A stretch of DNA of 40,716 nucleotides from a virus. This document shows, one piece after another, positions 4,031-40,716 of the stretch. How positions within the stretch are numbered: the first letter of the stretch is position 1; every line of letters starts with the position of its first letter. The DNA lies in UHGV virus genome UHGV-0322864. The stretch is one strand, 5' to 3'. Both the position numbers and the translations under genes were made by a program. A model generated the notes under the pieces. That model was not told where the DNA came from, did no database searches, and saw nothing but the letters and a program-made list of their open reading frames with translations.

Positions 4031-4813
4031 TTACTTTACACCAATGCTAGCTAAACGTCTGAGCACTGCTTGTGTTTGTGGACTGTACTGAGAACCTGCT
4101 GCATGTGGTGCACTTGCCCTCTGAACTGTTTGAGAAGTAGGAGGTTTACCGGCAAGCATAGCAGCTACCCCTAATACTGCATTACCAAAGTTCTGTTGAG
4201 GCTTCTGGTTTTTACCTTCCTGCACTTCATCAGAGTAAAACTCTACTGGATTTCCGCCTAAAGCACCTGTCTTAGAAGCAGCAATCTCTGCCTGAGTTGG
4301 CGCTTGTGCGGCCTTCTCTCTATCTAACAAGTCAGGACTAAACTGATTGACTGGTTGAACAGCTTGCAAAGCTCCAACAGGGTTCGCAATCTGAGAAGCT
4401 GCATCACCATAGAAAGGAAGAAAGTGTTTATTGTTCATGGAGTCAAGAGCTTGTGGAGTAAACCCCTTTTTACCAGCGAACATTTGCTTAGCACCACCGA
4501 TACCCTCTGAGTAACCAACCATTGCTTTCTTGACATCACCATTAAAAGCCTTTAAGTTATCTCTAATATAACGAGCACCCATATCAATATTCTTTGCTGG
4601 GTCAAGTCTGTCTTCTAGTTTGTAACCGTAGTCTTTAGCCAATCCTTTACTGATCTGCATTAAACCTACAGGACCAGTTCCAGAAGCCGCTGTAGGACGA
4701 CCACTAGACTCTCTTTGGATTACAGCATGAATCAAAGCAGCAGGAATCCTATACTTCTTTGAAGCCTGTTGAACCATTGGGTCTAGTTCTTCAATACCCA
4801 TTTTAATTGCCAT
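4031..4813 (-). CDS. soluble lytic transglycosylase (SLT) domain protein, likely virion-associated
   Basis: N-terminal motif AALIHAVIQRESSGRPTAASGTGPVGLMQISKGLAKDYGY matches the SLT catalytic-Glu signature (ExxxQRESS...GLMQ); sits among structural genes. Confidence 0.8.
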   Translation of the reverse strand: MAIKMGIEELDPMVQQASKKYRIPAALIHAVIQRESSGRPTAASGTGPVGLMQISKGLAKDYGYKLEDRLDPAKNIDMGARYIRDNLKAFNGDVKKAMVGYSEGIGGAKQMFAGKKGFTPQALDSMNNKHFLPFYGDAASQIANPVGALQAVQPVNQFSPDLLDREKAAQAPTQAEIAASKTGALGGNPVEFYSDEVQEGKNQKPQQNFGNAVLGVAAMLAGKPPTSQTVQRASAPHAAGSQYSPQTQAVLRRLASIGVK

Positions 4814-10732: not shown

Positions 10733-11224
10733 TTAATATTTACCTTCGGTGTAAAGATTAGCTTCTGCAACTCTTCTATTATGAAGACCCTGACTTCTCT
10801 GCTTCTCTCCCTTGACCGTTATTTTATCCCAACGAAGAAATTCGGAATAAACATCCCCCTTAACATCTCCATTGATAACCTTCCTTAACTTAGATGTGCT
10901 CAAAGCACCACTGCCAACATTGAAGTTGAAAGAAGTGAGTGCATCAAACTCATGAACTAGTAAAGGAACCTTTATGTTCTTCTGAGTAGCACGAACAGAG
11001 TCTTGTGTGTCTCTATCTAGCAGAGCTAGACAATCCTCTATAGAATACGTTAATCCTTGTCTAACCGGATAACCATTCATATCGCGCGTAGCCCCTACAC
11101 ATATAGTCCATATACCTGCGGAATCTTTATAAGCCTTGGTTCTCATACCCTCATGCTTCATGATGAATTCCATTCCAGCTGGGCTTAAGTTTAATTGTAC
11201 AGGTGGCAATGCGACGTTATCCAT
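10733..11224 (-). CDS. GH24 (T4-type) lysozyme
   Basis: KHEGMRTKAYKDSAGIWTICVG carries the T4-lysozyme catalytic spacing E-(9)-D-(6)-T; 163 aa. Confidence 0.85.
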   Translation of the reverse strand: MDNVALPPVQLNLSPAGMEFIMKHEGMRTKAYKDSAGIWTICVGATRDMNGYPVRQGLTYSIEDCLALLDRDTQDSVRATQKNIKVPLLVHEFDALTSFNFNVGSGALSTSKLRKVINGDVKGDVYSEFLRWDKITVKGEKQRSQGLHNRRVAEANLYTEGKY

Positions 11225-11253: not shown

Positions 11254-11472
11254 TTAAGGTAGTATCTTTCTCAGAGCGTTAGATTCAGCATCAGGGCAAA
11301 TAACAACTAAGTTATTTTGAATTGTTCTCTGCTTACATTGAGAGCTGAGTTTCTCTACTGGAGCAGGATCAGTTACTAATGGATGAACTGCGCCTACAGG
11401 GACTGCGGTCGATACCACAACACCTGCACCTAAACAGATTAAACCATATGCAGCTTGTTTCATCATTTTCAT
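11254..11472 (-). CDS. small secreted/membrane protein next to the lysozyme (lysis-associated candidate)
   Basis: 72 aa; N-terminal hydrophobic segment MKMMKQAAYGLICLGAGVVVSTAVPVGA, two Cys in the remainder; SD AGGAGA before the ATG. Confidence 0.45.
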   Translation of the reverse strand: MKMMKQAAYGLICLGAGVVVSTAVPVGAVHPLVTDPAPVEKLSSQCKQRTIQNNLVVICPDAESNALRKILP

Positions 11473-17796: not shown

Positions 17797-17805
17797 TATA
17801 CATTA
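17797..17805 (-). promoter_or_regulatory. TAATGTATA motif (candidate phage middle/late promoter element)
   Basis: Exact 9-mer on the minus strand ~33 nt upstream of the ATG at 17763, just downstream of a terminator. Confidence 0.4.
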
Positions 17806-25801: not shown

Positions 25802-26437
25802 TTACTTACAATCACCAACGGACAGGTTAAACATCTTACCTAGAGCAATCGTCTCACCTTCCCACGGAAGTTCTGCACCCTTCTCTTCCTCTAAAAGAAT
25901 AGAGCCGTCGACCAAAAATTTTTCGTAGTCTCGCAGTGCGTCGTCTACTAGCTCACTCTTGTGAATCCACGTAATTGTTTCTGTACCATCCTCTTCGATT
26001 CGAACATCACGATGCCATTCATCTTTGGAGGTAATGTAATCATGGAGCATTTCATATTCAGCTTCTTCAATCATCTCAATCATTACACGAGCATAGTCAG
26101 GGAGGTGATCATGTTTGGTAGATTCATATTCAACTACTTCCAGAGTAGATGGTTGTGTTTTAGTTTTAGAATCAGGGCGAGTAGTATGAATCAAATCTAA
26201 CATGTTTTTGTTCTCCGTAATAGTTGGTTTAAGAATACTTCCACTATATAAATCTTGTACAGCTAGTCCTGAAATATTTCCCATAGTTTCTAAATGTTGC
26301 AAGCTACAACCAGAACGGCATAGCTGTGAATTATAATCGTTAAGGTCCATTGCTTTAATGTGGAAAGGAGAACCAGAAGGGAAACTACCTCCATCTCCAT
26401 AAACACCTTCCATGTTACGTGCGATTAAACTATTCAT
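25802..26437 (-). CDS. hypothetical protein (211 aa)
   Basis: ORF at the head of the late operon; no recognisable motif. Confidence 0.5.
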   Translation of the reverse strand: MNSLIARNMEGVYGDGGSFPSGSPFHIKAMDLNDYNSQLCRSGCSLQHLETMGNISGLAVQDLYSGSILKPTITENKNMLDLIHTTRPDSKTKTQPSTLEVVEYESTKHDHLPDYARVMIEMIEEAEYEMLHDYITSKDEWHRDVRIEEDGTETITWIHKSELVDDALRDYEKFLVDGSILLEEEKGAELPWEGETIALGKMFNLSVGDCK

Positions 26438-27650: not shown

Positions 27651-27700
27651 TGTTATAAAGTAACAATAGCTAGTAAGCTGATTCTCTGAGTATGGAAAGT

Positions 27701-27722
27701 TTAACAAATTAAATTCCTTTAG
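27701..27722 (+). repeat. copy 1 of 22-nt motif TTAACAAATTAAATTCCTTTAG
   Basis: About 40 nt upstream of the early promoter at 27760. Confidence 0.5.
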
Positions 27723-29624: not shown

Positions 29625-29722
29625 GATTTCTATCGGGTACGATGTAAAACATACAAGGCAAGGAAACTTGCCCCGCTCTTTAAAAATCAGGCTAGAAAGT
29701 GAAAATATTCTTAAAAAGAGTA

Positions 29723-29751
29723 TTGACACCAGAAAAAGCCTGATATATAGT
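29723..29751 (+). promoter_or_regulatory. consensus sigma70 promoter P1
   Basis: A-rich UP-like TTAAAAAGAG, then TTGACA - 17 nt - TATAGT. Confidence 0.7.
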
Positions 29752-29867
29752 GAGCATAAGTCAGCGATGACGTGAAATATCCCGCTCTTTAAAAACTTAT
29801 CATCTTGCCCTTTCGCATAGATTCAAGCGAGATAAGGGAACGGAATAAAAGAAGATGATAAAAAGAG

Positions 29868-29895
29868 TTGACAAGCTAACACGGTGTGTTAAGCT
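29868..29895 (+). promoter_or_regulatory. sigma70 promoter P2
   Basis: ATAAAAAGAG then TTGACA - 16 nt - TAAGCT. Confidence 0.5.
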
Positions 29896-30024
29896 ACAAA
29901 TGCAGTAACCGCTCTTTAAAAATATGAATCATAAGTTAAGCCTCACCGCTTAATCTTCAATCAAATATAGCTGATTGATATATCCTCCCAATAAGGGGAG
30001 CGACGAAAAAGATTAAAAAAGTGG

Positions 30025-30053
30025 TTGACAGCTAAAACAGCATGATTCATAAT
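30025..30053 (+). promoter_or_regulatory. sigma70 promoter P3
   Basis: ATTAAAAAAGTGG then TTGACA - 17 nt - CATAAT. Confidence 0.65.
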
Positions 30054-30975
30054 GAGCACTCACTAAGCAAATCATCGCGAAGTGAACAGCGTAACAACGG
30101 CTAACAGTTGCATAGTGTGAGAAAGCACACTGATAGATTTACCGCTCTTTAATAATTTAAACATTCTCCTATATCGGTTGAATATGCTTGATGATAATAA
30201 CCATCGGAAAGCATACCAGATAAAACGGTGTAAGATTCTCTAAACTATCAGAGAAAACAATCTTACAATCCCTTGCTGGAAACGTCACCACTGATAAACG
30301 GATTCATTGAGTGTACGCAAAGACTTAAGCTAATCGCCCACGGTTAAGGGTAGCGGCGGTCATCGCTAACAAGGCGCTACAGTGAAAGAAGTTAATCAGG
30401 GTAGGCAAGCCCGAAGAATTAACGCTCAATTGAGAGCGGCGGGGAGTGGTTAAAAAGTGGCAAATTGCTATTTAACAATAAGGTTTAGTGTGAACGTTTA
30501 CGATGTGAACGGCTTGAGATTCATCACAAGATGAAAGTACATAGTCGGTTTATGTAGTAAACTTGCCGAAAGATATAAAACGTCAGAACATTAGACGGTC
30601 AATGACTCTTTCACAATAGCATCCCGTTGTGGGCGATGGCTAGTGATTGAGAGTTGATACAAAAGGATAGGCGAGAGCGAAAGCAAAGTAGACGATATTG
30701 CCGACGGTTACAATAAACGTAACTAATTAGAGTCGGACGCACTGCCTTATTGTGATGATTGATCATCGCTATCAGGTCGGCTTCGTTTATAGCGACTAAT
30801 TAAAGATACCAGATGAAACATCACGGATAAGGGGGCGGCAAGGTTAACTCCTGATAAGACCGCCCCGCTTACCTATAACTACTTAACAACGAGTGGTTAT
30901 AGTTAAGTTAATAGTGACTTAAACAAGCTCATAGAGAGCGGGGCATAGTGCCCTAACAATTGAAAGGTGAATATC

Positions 30976-31897: not shown

Positions 31898-31932
31898 AAG
31901 GCGCTATCTTAACGGGTAGCGCCTTTTCTTTT
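31898..31932 (+). terminator. intrinsic terminator after the 299-aa gene
   Basis: AAGGCGCTA-TCTTAACGG-TAGCGCCTT followed by TTCTTTT. Confidence 0.7.
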
Positions 31933-33162: not shown

Positions 33163-33182
33163 CTTTTAGTACTATGACGCTC
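33163..33182 (+). repeat. copy 1 of 20-nt motif CTCTTTTAGTACTATGACGC
   Basis: Lies 18 nt after the stop of the basic-protein gene; 19/20 identical to the copy at the window end. Confidence 0.6.
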
Positions 33183-33310
33183 TTTCTGTCGCGTCGTGCC
33201 CTCTCCCCATTTGAAGCTTCCGCATAGCCGCCTTTGAGCGGCTTTTGTCGTTGCCGTAAGCGCATTTACGAGTGTTTTTACTGCAATAGTCATGTATTGC
33301 TTTCAGGTTT

Positions 33311-33340
33311 GCCCCGGCTACGGCTGGGGCTTTTTTATGC
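33311..33340 (+). terminator. strong intrinsic terminator
   Basis: GCCCCGGC-TACG-GCTGGGGC followed by TTTTTTAT. Confidence 0.75.
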
Positions 33341-33385
33341 CCGTAAAACAGGAGGTATCAAGTTCTGATAACAACGGCACAGCTA

Positions 33386-33775
33386 ATGTTGACATTGACT
33401 ATTTATTATGAGGCAGGGAATCAGCCAACCGCATGTAAGGCGTTAGTTGCGGATACCGTGATAAATAGAATGGCCCAACGAAAACTGACCGCTGAACAGG
33501 TGATAAGACAAAAGAACCAGTTTGAGTGGATTCCGGTACTATTAAAACAGGAGAAACCTTATAAACGTTATGTAAAGCTGATTCGTGATAAAAATCCGAT
33601 GACTAAGCAAGCCATTGGAGAAAGCGAGCGGCTGGCTAAACGTGCCCTTAAGAAGAATTATGTTCCGCTGTATAGTGGGACTTACTTTCAGAGTAAGAGC
33701 GAAGGGGTGCCAAAATGGTATGCCAATCCTATGTATTGTGGTGATTTAGTGTTCGATAATAGCTCTAGGGAATAA
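33386..33775 (+). CDS. SleB/CwlJ-like cell-wall hydrolase (Hydrolase_2-like) domain protein
   Basis: N-terminal YYEAGNQPTACKALVADTVINRMA resembles the conserved (Y)AEARGE...VA.VI.NR signature; 129 aa; preceded by a strong terminator. Confidence 0.55.
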   Translation: MLTLTIYYEAGNQPTACKALVADTVINRMAQRKLTAEQVIRQKNQFEWIPVLLKQEKPYKRYVKLIRDKNPMTKQAIGESERLAKRALKKNYVPLYSGTYFQSKSEGVPKWYANPMYCGDLVFDNSSRE

Positions 33776-33789
33776 TCACTAGTGCCAGA

Positions 33790-33812
33790 TTTGACAAACT
33801 AAATTCCTTTAT
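33790..33812 (+). repeat. copy 2 of the 22-nt motif (TTGACAAACTAAATTCCTTTAT)
   Basis: Immediately after the SleB-like gene stop, at the 5' edge of the next intergenic region; 19/22 identical to copy 1. Confidence 0.5.
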
Positions 33813-33974
33813 AAACCAACCACTTAGTAAATTTATTGAAAAAGATGGTAGTATTCTGGGACTATAGGTAATGCTCTGTATATAGACCCTTTGAAAATTT
33901 CTTAGAAAATAAGTTTACTAAATATAACTTACTTAAATAATATTACTTTTAATCTCTGATAAAGGGTAAATAAT

Positions 33975-34271
33975 ATGACTTTAGAAGTATATAAATTCCT
34001 TTTTGTAAGCTGTTTAACTATCAGCGTTCTAGGATTTATTGTTCTCAGAAACAAAGCAGCAGGCTGGGAGAGAATGTATAAATCCCTAGTCCGAGTGGAT
34101 AAGATGTATAATGAGAAAGTTAAAGTAACACTCAACGATCTTATTATGCAAGTTGAAGACAGAAACAAACGTCTTCAGAATCTCAATCATGAAGTGTTGC
34201 GCCTTGCTCGTGCTAATGAAGACTTGCGAGTGGCTATTGCTAAGCAGCAGGGGATTAATAGTGAAAGTTAA
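33975..34271 (+). CDS. N-terminal TM plus coiled-coil protein (i-spanin-like or membrane effector)
   Basis: TM FLFVSCLTISVLGFIVL then helical heptad-like NEKVKVTLNDLIMQVEDRNKRLQNLNHEVLRLARANEDLRVAIAK. Confidence 0.5.
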   Translation: MTLEVYKFLFVSCLTISVLGFIVLRNKAAGWERMYKSLVRVDKMYNEKVKVTLNDLIMQVEDRNKRLQNLNHEVLRLARANEDLRVAIAKQQGINSES

Positions 34272-34494
34272 TATTAAGCCTGATCATACTACACTCCGTT
34301 TAAATAACATGAGGCCGGGCGCTCTCTTTCATTTTAAAGGTTCTCTCTATATCAGAACCGGATTAACAACTGACTATCACGTCAATTGTGTTAACGTGGT
34401 TTCTGGAGAGCTTATTGTTATCAGCAAAAACGAAGTCTGCCAAGTGCGCAATGATCTCCACATAACTAACATAGAGGATAAAGATGAAGATTGA
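34261..34494 (+). CDS. small early protein, paralog family member a
   Basis: Track ORF 34153..34494 overlaps the upstream gene; GTG 34261 with SD AGGGGA is in frame and gives a 77-aa product with the family motifs (PGALF...LYIR...CVNVVSGEL). Confidence 0.45.
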   Translation: MKVNIKPDHTTLRLNNMRPGALFHFKGSLYIRTGLTTDYHVNCVNVVSGELIVISKNEVCQVRNDLHITNIEDKDED

Positions 34495-34741
34495 TCTTAA
34501 GGTAAATGAACCGTCATTGTGTGTCGGCGATCTTGTTCTCGGGGATGTATTCCAAATCAGAGAAACACGATCAGATTTCTACATGGTTGTTCAGTTGTTT
34601 TCGTCACAAATCAAGGAAGTTAAACCCTCTGATGGTGGGTGTGTTGTCCTAAGTCTGGCAAATAAAAAAGTCATTAAGCTCAACTCAAAAAGTAAAGTTA
34701 TCCTCGTCCCTGATGTAGTAATTACTAATAAAGGCAAGTAA
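34484..34741 (+). CDS. small early protein, paralog family member b
   Basis: SD AGAGGA; motifs LGDVF, FYMVV. Confidence 0.55.
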   Translation: MKIDLKVNEPSLCVGDLVLGDVFQIRETRSDFYMVVQLFSSQIKEVKPSDGGCVVLSLANKKVIKLNSKSKVILVPDVVITNKGK

Positions 34742-34971: not shown

Positions 34972-35277
34972 ATGTCTGTTTCTTCTTTTGTGATATGTAA
35001 ACCTACTGTAACGATTCGTGCTCAAATGAAACACTGTTCTGGTGTCACTTATCTGGAGTTTAATCACAGTGAGAGCCGATACAACCCCGGATTTACAGTA
35101 GAGATTAAATCTCCGTGGTTTAATATGACATTGTTGCCGGAAGAAGTAGAGTCAGCATGTCGTGGCATTAAGACGGGGAGTTTGAGTCTTCTATCTTCTA
35201 GTTTGGGTGATGAGTTCCTGCCTTTGATTCAGAAAGGTGTGGCTAACGTTCGTAAAATGATGGAATCAGTTAAGTAA
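34972..35277 (+). CDS. hypothetical protein (101 aa)
   Basis: Track starts at GTG 34966; ATG 34972 has better SD spacing (AAGG N9). Confidence 0.5.
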   Translation: MSVSSFVICKPTVTIRAQMKHCSGVTYLEFNHSESRYNPGFTVEIKSPWFNMTLLPEEVESACRGIKTGSLSLLSSSLGDEFLPLIQKGVANVRKMMESVK

Positions 35278-35635
35278 CATCGACTTATAGCCCTTGTGTT
35301 TATCAGAGGGCTATGTGAGGGTGTTCCTCATTAACTTATTAATTCAGGCATATGCCACACCGCTAGGGAGAGCTTGCTCGAACATCCGGTGTTAGACTAA
35401 AACCTGTTAATTTTCGAAAGACTTTCCGATATGTAGGGGTACGTATTGGTTTGGGATTCAGGAGACTTCCTAGGGGTAGGGAGTCTTCACCAGTTGGAAT
35501 AAGAGATAGCTCTAGAACCTGAACTCTTAGGCAGAGAGGGTCGTCAATGAGTACGCGGTCAGAATCAGTCTACTGACTAGGGCTATCCCTTATATCAACT
35601 GGCAATAATGCCTCCACTAACAAAGAGAGATAGGT

Positions 35636-35776
35636 ATGAAAGTATCAACCAAACGTATGAACCGCCCTGAACGTATGGATGCAGTAGCAAATGGTGCTCT
35701 GAAACTGGAAGGCTTCTGGGTTCATGCAATGTCAGCAATCCGTAACAAGCAAGGTAATTGGACCTATGCCGGTTAA
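35636..35776 (+). CDS. possible small protein (46 aa)
   Basis: ATG with SD-like GAGAGATAGG; overlaps the next start; below the track cutoff. Confidence 0.3.
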   Translation: MKVSTKRMNRPERMDAVANGALKLEGFWVHAMSAIRNKQGNWTYAG

Positions 35777-36966: not shown

Positions 36967-37506
36967 ATGAAGCTAGATTTAAGTAAAGCAGTTGTTGATA
37001 AAGGTGTTGGCTATTTGTATGTGTACCAACCAACACACCCTATGGCTAATAAAGCTGGAAAGGTGTATGTTCATAGGTATGTTGCTCAAAATTTCTATGG
37101 TGTCGAACTGAACTCTGACCTAGTGGTTCATCACAAGGATGAGAATAAGTTAAACAATGAGCCATCTAATTTAGAGATCATGACTTATGAGGAGCATAGC
37201 AGGCATCATCATGGGGCTGTTATGGAAGAAAGGTTATGTTCTTTTTGTGGAGAGATTTACCTTGTTTCAGAGAATAGCAACCAAAGGCTTTGCTCACAGG
37301 TTTGCGCCCAATTGGATAGTAGGAGATTTGAGATAACAAAAGAATCTCTTCAATCACTGATAGATACATACCCTGTATATGTAGTAGGACGTCTGTTAGG
37401 TGTTAGTGATGTAGCCATTCACAAAAGATGCAGAAGGCTTGGAGTTGTTAAAAAGCCCCAAGGATTCTGGTTAACCGGAGAAAGACTGAATGAAAAAATT
37501 AAGTGA
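36967..37506 (+). CDS. HNH homing-type endonuclease
   Basis: HNH signature VVHHKDENKLNNEPSNLEIMTYEEHSRHHH, then Cys pairs CSFCGE...CSQVC; 179 aa. Confidence 0.85.
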   Translation: MKLDLSKAVVDKGVGYLYVYQPTHPMANKAGKVYVHRYVAQNFYGVELNSDLVVHHKDENKLNNEPSNLEIMTYEEHSRHHHGAVMEERLCSFCGEIYLVSENSNQRLCSQVCAQLDSRRFEITKESLQSLIDTYPVYVVGRLLGVSDVAIHKRCRRLGVVKKPQGFWLTGERLNEKIK

Positions 37507-37816
37507 TGATGCCATTCAGATGTTAAATGATAGGGCAGAGGAAAGAAAAGATCTTGCTAAGGCTGTTCCGTATTTAGCACCTATTTTATTATTTGTATCC
37601 AGCTTTTACTTTCCAGTTCTTTGGTTTATCACTGGACCTTTGATACTATTTGCTGTGGTTTGGTGTACGTGCAAGTTCACCAAATTTTTATACACAAAAA
37701 GTGTAAAGGTCTATGCAAACGCTAAGAGAGATGGGGAGTTAGATACTCTTGTAGCTGTGATTCTGCTTCTTTCTTTTGTGGCATATCTACTACTAAGCAA
37801 GTGGGGTGTGTTATGA
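37490..37816 (+). CDS. two-TM membrane protein
   Basis: Hydrophobic segments LAPILLFVSSFYFPVLWFITGPLILFAVVWC and LVAVILLLSFVAYLLL; overlaps the upstream stop. Confidence 0.5.
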   Translation: MKKLSDDAIQMLNDRAEERKDLAKAVPYLAPILLFVSSFYFPVLWFITGPLILFAVVWCTCKFTKFLYTKSVKVYANAKRDGELDTLVAVILLLSFVAYLLLSKWGVL

Positions 37817-38109
37817 GTTGGGGTGGTGTAATATCCTTAATCTGTATCTTCATCGTCTGTGTGGCCCTTACAGGCTGCGTACAGAGCCGTCCTGATGGGT
37901 GGTGTGCAGTAGCAGTAAATGGTGCATGTCTATCTACCATTAAAAATGGTAAACCTGTAGCCTCTGGTGATGTTGATATGAGATATGCAGGTATTAAATG
38001 TGTGACTGGATGGAACAGTAAAGAGTGTTCTGGTTCAGTTGAAACTACGGTCAGAGAGTGGGATTATCCTTCAGAGGATAACTCTTCATCTAACGTGAGT
38101 ATTTACTGA
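37813..38109 (+). CDS. Cys-rich lipoprotein (superinfection-exclusion candidate)
   Basis: Signal peptide with lipobox ALTGC (MSWGGVISLICIFIVCVALTGC); five further Cys in the mature part; track start was GTG 37801. Confidence 0.55.
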   Translation: MSWGGVISLICIFIVCVALTGCVQSRPDGWCAVAVNGACLSTIKNGKPVASGDVDMRYAGIKCVTGWNSKECSGSVETTVREWDYPSEDNSSSNVSIY

Positions 38110-40696: not shown

Positions 40697-40716
40697 CTTT
40701 TAGTACTATGACGCCT
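40697..40716 (+). repeat. copy 2 of 20-nt motif (TCCTTTTAGTACTATGACGC)
   Basis: Lies ~17 nt after the stop at 40680; preceded by a pyrimidine tract like copy 1. Confidence 0.6.

What the first reader, a model, noticed from the sequence alone, without database searches (positions are those of the whole stretch)
33386..34271. SleB-like cell-wall hydrolase and a TM/coiled-coil protein in the early region, separate from the late lysozyme
Seen in sequence: the 33386-33775 product starts YYEAGNQPTACKALVADTVINRMA, resembling the conserved N-terminal signature of SleB/CwlJ-type hydrolases. The next gene encodes an N-terminal TM plus coiled coil, an i-spanin-like architecture. A GH24 lysozyme and an SLT domain protein are already present in the late operon, so the window would hold three distinct peptidoglycan-active enzymes. 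Inference: either this is the true endolysin-spanin cassette and the GH24 enzyme is virion-associated, or the early hydrolase has another role such as wall remodelling or exclusion.
Basis: partly seen in the sequence, partly recalled or inferred. Interest (0 to 1): 0.5.

Follow-up and report, generated by a model that had tools for sequence, protein, structure and literature searches.

The report
Second SleB-type wall hydrolase in Kuravirus
This phiEco32/SU10-like E. coli phage carries, besides its late holin-lysozyme pair and a virion transglycosylase, a small conserved SleB-type cell-wall hydrolase whose relatives are the only predicted endolysin in sister phages; the membrane protein next to it is not a spanin.

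Summary
The ORF at 33386-33775 is a real, strongly conserved SleB/CwlJ-type (Pfam Hydrolase_2) domain with the catalytic glutamate intact. The next gene encodes an N-terminal TM helix plus a coiled coil. The window also holds a GH24 lysozyme and an SLT protein.

The window is a Kuravirus. The two genes are the homologues of phiEco32 gp117 and gp116.

The "endolysin-spanin cassette" reading fails:
- Kuravirus spanins were already mapped elsewhere, outside this window.
- No lipoprotein partner lies near the gp116 homologue.
- A conserved 200-bp spacer that looks like a promoter region separates the two genes.
- The GH24 enzyme sits next to a holin and was not found in the SU10 virion proteome, whereas the SLT protein was.

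There is a kernel of truth. Homologues with 32-36% identity are the only annotated endolysin in the sister phages 7-11, GAP52 and Privateer, which lack the holin-GH24 pair. The likeliest reading is therefore an ancestral endolysin kept as a cytoplasmic, probably weakly expressed accessory muralytic enzyme.

New details:
- The true start is probably a conserved CTG at 33365, giving 136 aa.
- Two terminators lie just upstream of the gene.
- Several residues conserved across the family are replaced in this clade.

The finding is ordinary to modestly interesting.

The parts
33365..33775 (+). SleB/CwlJ-type (Hydrolase_2) cell-wall hydrolase, homologue of phiEco32 gp117 / SU10_0116. It is 136 aa if started at CTG 33365 and 129 aa from the listed ATG 33386. 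The catalytic Glu codon is 33410-33412.
33350..33355 (+). Shine-Dalgarno AGGAGG, 9 nt upstream of CTG 33365 and 30 nt upstream of ATG 33386
   Evidence: Read from the sequence. Conserved as AGGAGG or AGGGGG in ten related genomes.
33226..33253 (+). Intrinsic terminator-like hairpin 1 with its T tract
   Evidence: Terminator scan. The WFI101126 record annotates terminators at the equivalent positions.
33311..33340 (+). Intrinsic terminator-like hairpin 2: 8-bp stem with 7 G-C pairs, followed by TTTTTTAT. It ends about 25 nt before the SD of the hydrolase gene.
   Evidence: It is conserved in SU10, WFI101126 and ECBP2 but absent in phiEco32, where genes 119 and 118 lie upstream.
33776..33974 (+). 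A 199-bp AT-rich non-coding spacer between the two genes. It holds a conserved 22-nt motif at 33790-33811 and a sigma70-like site at 33914-33941. It is probably the promoter or regulatory region of the next transcription unit.
   Evidence: Spacer alignment across Kuravirus-like phages and L005. The motif is repeated at 27700-27721, upstream of the first early promoter. Promoter scan. The SU7 record annotates a promoter here.
33975..34271 (+). A 98-aa bitopic membrane protein with a TM helix at about residues 5-23 and a coiled-coil tail. Homologue of phiEco32 gp116 / SU10_0115. Function unknown. It is not an i-spanin, and the 'DNA helicase' label is unsupported.
   Evidence: dN/dS 0.11-0.41. 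No o-spanin partner nearby. Unrelated to the known Kuravirus i-spanin.
11254..11472 (-). Late holin, homologue of phiEco32 gp16; part of the canonical lysis pair
   Evidence: phrog_11161 holin, E=4e-49. One TM helix. phiEco32 annotation.
10733..11224 (-). Late GH24 endolysin, homologue of phiEco32 gp17, immediately downstream of the holin
   Evidence: Pfam Phage_lysozyme 111.8 bits. phrog_7 endolysin. Not detected in the SU10 particle proteome.
4031..4813 (-). SLT-domain transglycosylase, homologue of phiEco32 gp22; the virion-internal (ejection) muralytic protein
   Evidence: Pfam SLT 84.8 bits. PHROG transglycosylase / internal virion protein. SU10 CDS20 was detected by mass spectrometry as an internal virion protein.

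Best explanation
The gene at 33365/33386-33775 encodes a stand-alone catalytic domain of the SleB/CwlJ (Hydrolase_2) family. This is a lysozyme-like fold that, in SleB, cleaves the MurNAc-GlcNAc bond as a lytic transglycosylase, using a single glutamate at the end of helix 1.

It is the Kuravirus copy of the endolysin type that the sister prolate podophages 7-11, GAP52 and Privateer use as their only predicted endolysin. The Kuravirus-like lineage additionally carries a holin-GH24 lysozyme pair among its tail genes, and the SleB-type enzyme has been kept under strong purifying selection.

The protein has no signal peptide or membrane segment, so it must sit in the cytoplasm. It can reach the wall only when the membrane is permeabilised by the late holin. 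I therefore take it to be an accessory (second) endolysin. It is probably made in small amounts: it sits behind tandem terminators, has no promoter of its own that I could find, and appears to use a near-cognate CUG start.

The downstream 98-aa TM/coiled-coil protein belongs to a separate unit, is of unknown function, and is not a spanin.

Shown: family membership, fold, retention of the catalytic Glu, selection, absence of export signals, the gene layout, and homology to the sister-phage endolysins. Inferred: enzymatic activity, low expression, the timing of action, and the direction of the evolutionary scenario.
For: Family and fold:
- Pfam Hydrolase_2 scores above its gathering threshold.
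- The family profile hits SleB 4F55/4FET at E about 1e-17.
- Many phage 'SleB cell wall hydrolase / endolysin' structures match it.

Catalytic residue: E9 aligns with the Glu of SleB 'YGES' and is invariant in 94 relatives. That glutamate is essential in SleB and in a SleB-fold T6SS toxin that kills E. coli from the periplasm (PMC12331253; PMC11148199).

Selection and spread: dN/dS is 0.05-0.09 at dS of about 1. The gene is present in about 99 Kuravirus-like genomes.

Sister phages: the homologues in 7-11 (31.9% identity), GAP52 (35.8%) and Privateer (34.5%) are annotated as endolysin. 7-11 gp111 hits both phrog_938 (endolysin) and phrog_12974, the family of this protein. Those phages lack the holin-lysozyme pair (PMC4281155; PMC7881722).

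Location and expression:
- There is no hydrophobic segment: KD19 is at most 0.61 even with the extended N-terminus.
- Terminators lie just upstream.
- The CTG start is supported.
- No gp36-type promoter is nearby.

Precedent: a late lysozyme or peptidase endolysin plus a distant SleB-type hydrolase has been reported in rV5/PVP-SE1-like and T5-like phages. Hydrolase_2 is a recognised lysin domain of phages of Gram-negative hosts.
Against: - No activity data exist for this protein or any close relative.
- Four positions that are at least 99% conserved in the wider family set are replaced throughout the clade: R11 to G, C37 to E, H121 to L, Y124 to D/N. H100, H102 and S47 also differ. Substrate binding or activity may therefore be altered or lost.
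- The gene lies in the early-direction cluster, not with the holin, so a role unrelated to lysis is possible.
- It is not syntenic with the 7-11-type endolysin gene, so orthology is not proven and the direction of gain or loss is inferred.
- It was not detected in the SU10 proteome of PEG-precipitated lysate, which did pick up six early proteins. That fits low abundance, but it also fits no expression.
- The primary phiEco32 expression data (Pavlova 2012) could not be read.
Confidence: 0.5

Rival explanations
1. Repurposed domain. After the lineage acquired the holin-GH24 pair, the SleB-type protein took on a non-lytic early role. Examples would be a regulatory or moonlighting function, as T7 lysozyme gp3.5 has on T7 RNA polymerase, or binding or processing of cytoplasmic peptidoglycan fragments. 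It would keep the fold but have an altered active-site surround.
For: - The gene sits in the early-direction cluster, far from the holin.
- Clade-wide replacement of the otherwise near-invariant R11, H121, Y124 and C37.
- Very strong purifying selection despite apparent redundancy with GH24.
- Predicted cytoplasmic location.
Against: - The catalytic Glu is invariant.
- Each of the unusual substitutions also occurs singly in other family members that keep the remaining motifs. For example, EAGNQ occurs together with GDHxFY, and CGDLxF occurs together with E(A/S)R(G/S)EP. None of them is therefore clearly disabling.
- The closest annotated relatives are endolysins.
- No partner or alternative substrate is suggested by any result.
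Confidence: 0.2
2. The hydrolase and the 98-aa membrane protein form a two-gene lysis unit of their own: an endolysin with a holin-like or membrane-tethering partner, and not a spanin. This unit would be ancestral to the clade and independent of the late holin.
For: - The adjacency of the two genes, including the roughly 200-bp spacer, is conserved in all Kuravirus-like genomes and in the divergent relative L005.
- The 98-aa protein has generic holin-like features: small size, one TM helix and a charged C-terminal tail.
- In Certrevirus, a SleB-like gene is followed by a candidate class II holin (PMC7344957).
Against: - The two genes are separated by a conserved promoter-like spacer rather than being coupled.
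- The genes downstream of the 7-11-type endolysin encode no TM proteins.
- The membrane protein evolves much faster than the hydrolase: 43% against 86% identity to ECBP2.
- A bona fide holin already lies next to GH24.
- Nothing beyond coiled-coil matches was found for it.
Confidence: 0.12
3. One reading: 33386-34271 is the true endolysin plus i-spanin cassette, and the GH24 lysozyme is a virion protein.
For: The TM plus coiled-coil architecture superficially resembles an i-spanin. Homologues of the hydrolase are the endolysin in sister phages.
Against: - The Kuravirus i- and o-spanin pair has been identified elsewhere in the genome. It is absent from this window and unrelated to the 98-aa protein.
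- No lipobox ORF is embedded in, overlapping or adjacent to the gene.
- GH24 follows a holin and is absent from the SU10 virion proteome, while the SLT protein is present.
Confidence: 0.03
4. A decaying relic: the ORF is no longer expressed. It has lost its canonical start codon, sits behind terminators, and is redundant with GH24.
For: - There is no canonical start with a usable SD. Suseptimavirus genomes lack the ATG altogether.
- Tandem terminators lie upstream.
- The protein was not detected by mass spectrometry in SU10.
Against: - dN/dS is 0.05-0.09 with saturating synonymous divergence.
- The frame is intact in about 99 genomes.
- The SD and the CTG are conserved, and the codons between the CTG and the ATG vary only synonymously.
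Confidence: 0.03

Closest known systems
SleB / CwlJ spore-cortex lytic enzymes (Pfam Hydrolase_2, PF07486; structures 4F55, 4FET)
   Different: About 15% identity. It has no signal peptide and no N-terminal PG-binding domain, both of which SleB has. The host has no muramic-lactam cortex. R11, H121 and Y124 of the family consensus are replaced. It is phage-encoded.
Hydrolase_2-type endolysins of the sister prolate podophages 7-11 gp111, GAP52_091 and Privateer gp098 (Grimontviridae), and of phiEcoM-GJ1
   Same: Identity is 32-36% over about 85% of the length. They share the PHROG families and the 'YxEAG' variant of the catalytic motif. They have a similar size (141 against 136 aa), lack an export signal, and lie in the leftward (non-structural) gene cluster. 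In 7-11 a terminator lies immediately upstream, as it does here.
   Different: In those phages it is the only predicted endolysin and it keeps the GxHxF motif. Here it coexists with a holin-GH24 pair and has Leu at that position. The genes are not at syntenic positions.
'Second endolysin' SleB-like hydrolases of rV5/PVP-SE1-like (Vequintavirinae, Certrevirus, BME3), Phapecoctavirus and T5-like phages
   Same: The same genome logic: a classical endolysin in the late or structural module plus a Hydrolase_2 protein in the regulatory or replication module, far from the holin.
   Different: The Certrevirus protein is reported to have a signal peptide and an overlapping candidate holin. The Kuravirus protein has neither. 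Sequence similarity is only at family level.
Two-component spanins (lambda Rz/Rz1 type), for the 98-aa neighbour
   Same: An N-terminal TM helix followed by a coiled-coil-prone region, and a small size.
   Different: It has no o-spanin partner and no similarity to the Kuravirus i-spanin, which belongs to the JH2 family. It lies in the early cluster behind a separate promoter-like spacer. The positive charges cluster C-terminal to the TM helix, so the coiled coil may be cytoplasmic.

Membership tests
SleB/CwlJ cell-wall hydrolase family (Pfam Hydrolase_2, PF07486) | Profile match above the curated threshold | tested here: met
   32.2 bits against a gathering score of 27. A profile of the protein's own family hits SleB catalytic domains at E=6e-18.
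SleB/CwlJ cell-wall hydrolase family (Pfam Hydrolase_2, PF07486) | SleB catalytic-domain fold | tested here: met
SleB/CwlJ cell-wall hydrolase family (Pfam Hydrolase_2, PF07486) | Catalytic glutamate in the Y-x-E-(A/S) motif | tested here: met
   E9 (33410-33412) aligns with the Glu of 'YGES' in 4F55/4FET and is invariant in all aligned relatives.
SleB/CwlJ cell-wall hydrolase family (Pfam Hydrolase_2, PF07486) | Other near-invariant residues: R after E-A, the T-H-Y-H segment, and the G-x-H-x-F-Y C-terminal strand | tested here: not met
   R11 to G, H100 to Y, H102 to Q, H121 to L and Y124 to D/N throughout the Kuravirus clade. The functional role of these residues could not be checked because the structure papers are not held. 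They are not part of the formal family definition.
SleB/CwlJ cell-wall hydrolase family (Pfam Hydrolase_2, PF07486) | Muralytic (lytic transglycosylase) activity | not testable with these tools
   Needs a zymogram or turbidity assay and muropeptide analysis for 1,6-anhydroMurNAc products.
Phage endolysin (functional class) | Muralytic enzyme required for, or contributing to, lysis from within, and released or activated by a holin | not testable with these tools
   Only indirect evidence: homologues are the sole predicted endolysin in 7-11, GAP52 and Privateer. The protein has no export signal and is not adjacent to a holin.
Two-component spanin, i-spanin subunit (for 33975-34271) | Cognate o-spanin lipoprotein gene embedded in, overlapping or adjacent to it | tested here: not met
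   A lipobox scan of all frames finds no candidate near 33975-34500. The only credible lipoprotein is at 37813-38109.
Two-component spanin, i-spanin subunit (for 33975-34271) | Similarity to a known i-spanin family, or being the only candidate in the genome | tested here: not met
   The Kuravirus i/o-spanin pair is already catalogued at phiEco32 35272-35768. There is no similarity to it, and there are no spanin Pfam or PHROG hits.
Two-component spanin, i-spanin subunit (for 33975-34271) | N-terminal TM helix with a periplasmic coiled-coil domain | tested here: inconclusive
   The TM helix and coiled coil are present. Topology is untested. The flanking charges (MTLEVYK on one side, LRNKAAGWERMYK on the other) favour a cytoplasmic C-terminus by the positive-inside rule, which is an inference.
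DNA helicase (database label of phrog_12154 and RefSeq phi32_116) | Helicase or NTPase domain | tested here: not met
   A 98-aa protein with no helicase hit in Pfam, NCBIfam or PDB, alone or as a family. Only coiled-coil matches were found.

The most novel reading that the evidence does not exclude
The SleB-type protein is the ancestral endolysin of the prolate (C3) podophages. In the Kuravirus lineage it was displaced from the lysis job by an acquired holin-GH24 pair and then kept for a different task. It would be tightly throttled by tandem terminators and a conserved CUG start, and it has a remodelled substrate groove (R11G, H121L, Y124D/N). It may work together with the adjacent membrane-anchored coiled-coil protein. 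Possible tasks are local wall remodelling, control of lysis timing, or a regulatory moonlighting role like that of T7 lysozyme.
Probability: 0.15. Interest if true: 0.55.

Novelty: new member of a known kind. Interest (0 to 1): 0.3.

Why it matters
Kuraviruses (SU10, ES17 and related phages) are being developed for phage therapy, and their lysis system is described in the literature as holin plus GH24 endolysin plus spanins. A third, universally conserved muralytic gene is missing from that picture. In public records it is labelled 'hypothetical', truncated, or given inconsistent starts.

If the protein is active, it is a very small (about 15 kDa), basic (pI 9.7) candidate enzybiotic for Gram-negative bacteria. 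The clade would also give a natural comparison between phages that rely on a SleB-type endolysin alone and phages that carry it alongside GH24.

The conserved non-AUG start and the 'DNA helicase' mislabel of the neighbouring gene are practical annotation corrections.

None of this changes current understanding of phage lysis. Second SleB-type hydrolases placed away from the lysis cassette are already reported in several phage groups.

Tried and rejected
- A single-sequence search of PDB sequences found nothing. The shallow 11-sequence AlphaFold run was unusable, with pLDDT 51. Both problems were solved by building a deeper family alignment.
- I looked for gp36 (phage sigma) promoters, consensus tAATGTAtA, near the genes. 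Exact copies occur only at the expected late positions, 286-294 and 17797-17805 on the minus strand. The one-mismatch site inside 33975-34271 is at chance level.
- I tested whether the N-terminus, including the extended form, could be a signal-anchor-release segment. The hydropathy is far too low.
- I looked for an o-spanin in all frames and found none.
- I considered FtsB/FtsL-like mimicry for the 98-aa protein. There is no DivIC/FtsB profile hit, so I dropped it as unsupported.
- I checked the contexts of more distant small Hydrolase_2 proteins. One lies in the structural region of a phiKZ-like phage and one in a nucleotide-metabolism module. These show variable placement but do not help with function.
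- Rfam and tRNA scans of the window found nothing.
- The primary phiEco32 genome and expression papers and both SleB structure papers are not in the held library. The temporal class therefore rests on secondary descriptions. The numbering of the SleB catalytic Glu (E157 in B. cereus, E151 in B. anthracis) rests on my memory plus position arithmetic.
Full report
**Identity of the window.** The region 32500-35500 matches 100 phage records at 80-99% nucleotide identity. All are Kuravirus-like E. coli or Shigella podophages of the Gordonclarkvirinae, such as phiEco32, SU10, ES17 and WFI101126. From the annotations of those records, ORF 33386-33775 is the homologue of phiEco32 gp117 / SU10_0116, and ORF 33975-34271 is the homologue of gp116 / SU10_0115. 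The minus-strand half of the window is the late morphogenesis cluster. The plus-strand half is the cluster described as early in phiEco32, SU10 and YF01.

**Checking the observation.** The 129-aa ORF exists.
- It scores 32.2 bits against Pfam Hydrolase_2, where the gathering score is 27.
- It belongs to phrog_12974 (unknown function) and matches phrog_938 (endolysin) weakly.
- The subfamily is small. An exhaustive HMM search of 1.84 billion representatives gave only 75 proteins at E<=1e-3. An alignment seeded with those proteins then reached 1,292 Hydrolase_2 proteins.
- A profile of 94 of these, with the window protein first, hits the two solved SleB catalytic domains at E=6e-18 and 3e-17 over the whole domain.
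- In the viral structure library the model matches dozens of phage proteins named 'cell wall hydrolase SleB' or 'endolysin'. The SU10 orthologue is already named 'Cell wall hydrolase SleB domain-containing protein' in UniProt.

The Glu of 'IYYEAG' (E9, codon 33410-33412) aligns with the Glu of SleB 'VYGES' and is invariant in every relative examined. That glutamate is reported as essential for SleB activity (PMC12331253). The equivalent glutamate is needed for the toxicity to E. coli of a SleB-fold T6SS effector (PMC11148199).

The 98-aa neighbour has one hydrophobic helix at residues 5-23 and a heptad-patterned tail. Its family of 31 clusters is confined to Kuravirus-like phages and gives only generic coiled-coil matches such as GCN4, BST2, DUF7365 and DUF4446. 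The 'DNA helicase' label it carries in PHROGs and RefSeq has no support.

The GH24 and SLT domains are confirmed at 10733-11224 and 4031-4813 on the minus strand.

**The gene is real and constrained.** Against ECBP2, where dS is about 1.0, the hydrolase has dN/dS of 0.08. Against the divergent metagenomic relative L005, synonymous sites are saturated, yet the proteins are still 74% identical. tblastn finds the gene in about 99 Kuravirus-like genomes, 63 of them at 99% amino-acid identity or more. The 98-aa protein evolves much faster: 43-46% identity to the ECBP2 type, with dN/dS 0.11-0.41.

**The start codon.** The listed ATG at 33386 has no Shine-Dalgarno sequence. The only SD, AGGAGG at 33350-33355, lies 30 nt upstream. 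Three observations point to CTG 33365 as the start.
- In L005 the orthologue starts at a TTG preceded by AAGGAGG and encodes 136 aa. That TTG aligns exactly with CTG 33365 in the window.
- Across ten Kuravirus, Suseptimavirus and Nieuwekanaalvirus genomes, the eight codons from GTT-CTG to the ATG position read VLITTAQL. They vary only at three synonymous third positions. In-frame stop codons lie immediately upstream.
- The Suseptimavirus genomes have CTT instead of the ATG.

The annotations disagree with each other. Records give 101 aa from an internal Met (which would lack the catalytic Glu), 128 aa from TTG, 129 aa from ATG, or 136 aa in Bas89.

The most economical reading is initiation at the conserved CUG, 9 nt after the SD, giving a 136-aa protein with a complete first helix. 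A near-cognate start implies weak translation. That implication rests on general knowledge of E. coli initiation and was not tested here.

**Transcriptional setting.**
- Two intrinsic-terminator hairpins (33226-33243 and 33311-33330, each followed by a T tract) lie directly upstream. They are annotated as terminators in WFI101126.
- Another terminator-like hairpin follows the 302-aa early gene at 31898-31925.
- I found no promoter between the terminators and the gene.
- The phage-sigma (gp36) promoter consensus tAATGTAtA (PMC8948821) occurs exactly only at the expected late positions.
- Downstream, a 199-bp AT-rich spacer separates the hydrolase gene from the 98-aa gene. It is conserved in blocks even in L005. 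It contains a 22-nt motif that recurs upstream of the first early promoter at 27700-27721. It has a sigma70-like site at 33914-33941, and the SU7 record annotates a promoter there.

The two genes are therefore probably not one cassette. The hydrolase sits at the tail of a heavily terminated unit, and the 98-aa gene opens the next unit.

**Testing the 'endolysin-spanin cassette' idea.**
- Kongari et al. (2018) catalogued the phiEco32, NJ01, KBNP1711 and ECBP2 spanins as an overlapped pair. In phiEco32 the i-spanin is at 35417-35768 and the o-spanin at 35272-35533. This is in the middle-gene part of the genome.
- Those proteins have no significant match in this window. The best tblastn E-values are 0.009 to 3.4, over stretches of 21-23 residues. 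They are also unrelated to the 98-aa protein.
- A lipobox scan of every start codon in all six frames finds one credible lipoprotein, at 37813-38109. This is the phi32_106 'putative phage lipoprotein', 3.5 kb away. A second formal match, a 34-36-aa ORF at 26290-26400 on the minus strand with its Cys near the C-terminus, is not a credible lipoprotein. Nothing turns up in or beside 33975-34271.
- The GH24 gene directly follows a holin gene (phrog_11161, E=4e-49; phiEco32 gp16/gp17).
- In the SU10 proteome the SLT protein (CDS20, 27.5 kDa) was detected as an internal virion protein. The holin, the GH24 enzyme, CDS116 and CDS115 were not detected.

The GH24 enzyme is therefore the classical holin-dependent endolysin, the SLT protein is the virion-borne enzyme, and the 98-aa protein is not the spanin.

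**What the hydrolase probably is.** The most informative result is tblastn against annotated phages. Outside the Kuravirus-like group, the best hits are the proteins annotated as endolysin in the other prolate podophages: 7-11 gp111, GAP52_091, Privateer gp098, CsaP_009 and P59. These have 32-36% identity over 79-88% of the query. 7-11 gp111 matches both phrog_938 (endolysin) and phrog_12974, and it shares the 'YxEAG' variant of the catalytic motif.

Those phages have no holin-lysozyme pair among their structural genes, whereas the Kuraviruses do (PMC4281155; PMC7881722). In 7-11 the gene is also immediately preceded by an annotated terminator.

I therefore read the Kuravirus protein as the lineage's copy of the SleB-type endolysin, kept alongside a holin-GH24 pair. 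Whether the pair was gained in Kuraviruses or lost in the others is inferred, not shown, and the genes are not at syntenic positions.

The protein has no hydrophobic segment, even in the 136-aa form (KD19 0.61 or less). It must therefore wait in the cytoplasm for membrane permeabilisation. This is how a canonical soluble endolysin behaves.

The same layout, with a classical endolysin in the late module plus a SleB-type hydrolase elsewhere, has been noted for BME3/PVP-SE1-like, Certrevirus and T5-like phages. Hydrolase_2 is a recognised lysin domain in phages of Gram-negative hosts.

**Caveats.**
- No activity has been measured.
- The whole clade, L005 included, replaces residues that are at least 99% conserved in the 86 more distant relatives of alignment A3: R11 to G, C37 to E, H121 to L, Y124 to D/N. 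It also replaces H100, H102 and S47. That comparison set may over-represent one subfamily with a Cys pair. Each substitution also occurs singly in other members that keep the remaining motifs, so none is clearly disabling. An altered substrate groove or a changed role still cannot be excluded.
- The expression class is inferred from position and secondary sources, because the primary phiEco32 papers were not available.

**Verdict.** The spanin and virion-GH24 interpretation is rejected. The 'true endolysin' idea survives only in a weaker form: an ancestral-type endolysin retained as a second, probably weakly expressed, muralytic enzyme.

This is a new member of a known kind. The domain assignment is already in UniProt and in some GenBank records, and the two-hydrolase layout is known in other phages.

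The points of modest interest are:
- the link to the sole endolysin of the sister phages;
- the conserved CUG start behind tandem terminators;
- the clade-specific changes around the active site;
- two annotation errors, namely the inconsistent starts of the hydrolase gene and the 'DNA helicase' label on its neighbour.

Noticed in passing
window 37813-38109 (+), with 37490-37816 (+) just upstream: This is the only credible lipoprotein gene in the window. Its signal ends in the lipobox ALTG|C, and the mature part is Cys-rich and about 76 aa long. It is the homologue of the phi32_106 'putative phage lipoprotein' (phrog_4281, unknown function). A 108-aa multi-TM protein with no PHROG hit overlaps its start by a few bases. 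An early lipoprotein could be a superinfection-exclusion factor of the Llp/Cor type, but it is not placed like an o-spanin.
   Followed up: partly
window 36967-37506 (+) and the whole window: ARAGORN finds no tRNA in the window. In phiEco32 and WFI101126 a tRNA-Arg lies immediately upstream of the lipoprotein gene. Here that neighbourhood holds an HNH endonuclease ORF (179 aa, phrog_15471, E=5e-32). This suggests that a homing-endonuclease insertion replaced or displaced the tRNA gene.
   Followed up: partly
window 33163-33180 and 40697-40714 (+): An exact 18-nt direct repeat, CTTTTAGTACTATGACGC. The first copy lies just after the stop codon of the 147-aa ORF and upstream of the tandem terminators. 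The second copy lies at the very end of the window. L005 has a similar 'tgtgacgctctc' stretch at the equivalent place. Rfam finds nothing here. Its function is unknown.
   Followed up: no
window 29672-30161 (+): Three copies of a roughly 21-nt element (ACCGCTCTTTAAAAAT...) spaced 233-236 bp apart. Near-consensus sigma70 promoters lie among them: TTGACA-17-TATAGT at 29723 and TTGACA-17-CATAAT at 30025. This is presumably the triple early-promoter region that the SU10 paper describes between CDS120 and CDS121.
   Followed up: partly
L005 9580-10000 (metagenomic relative, Logan SRR25999232 contig): In this divergent relative, about 420 nt of apparently non-coding sequence lies between the tandem terminators and the hydrolase gene. 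The window has only about 35 nt there. I did not examine it for structured RNA or small ORFs.
   Followed up: no
window 11254-11472 (-): The protein annotated as holin (72 aa) has a single predicted TM helix and a 40-residue C-terminal part with two Cys residues. This is an unusual architecture for a holin that must release a soluble GH24 enzyme. Its holin role rests on annotation (phrog_11161) and on its position.
   Followed up: partly
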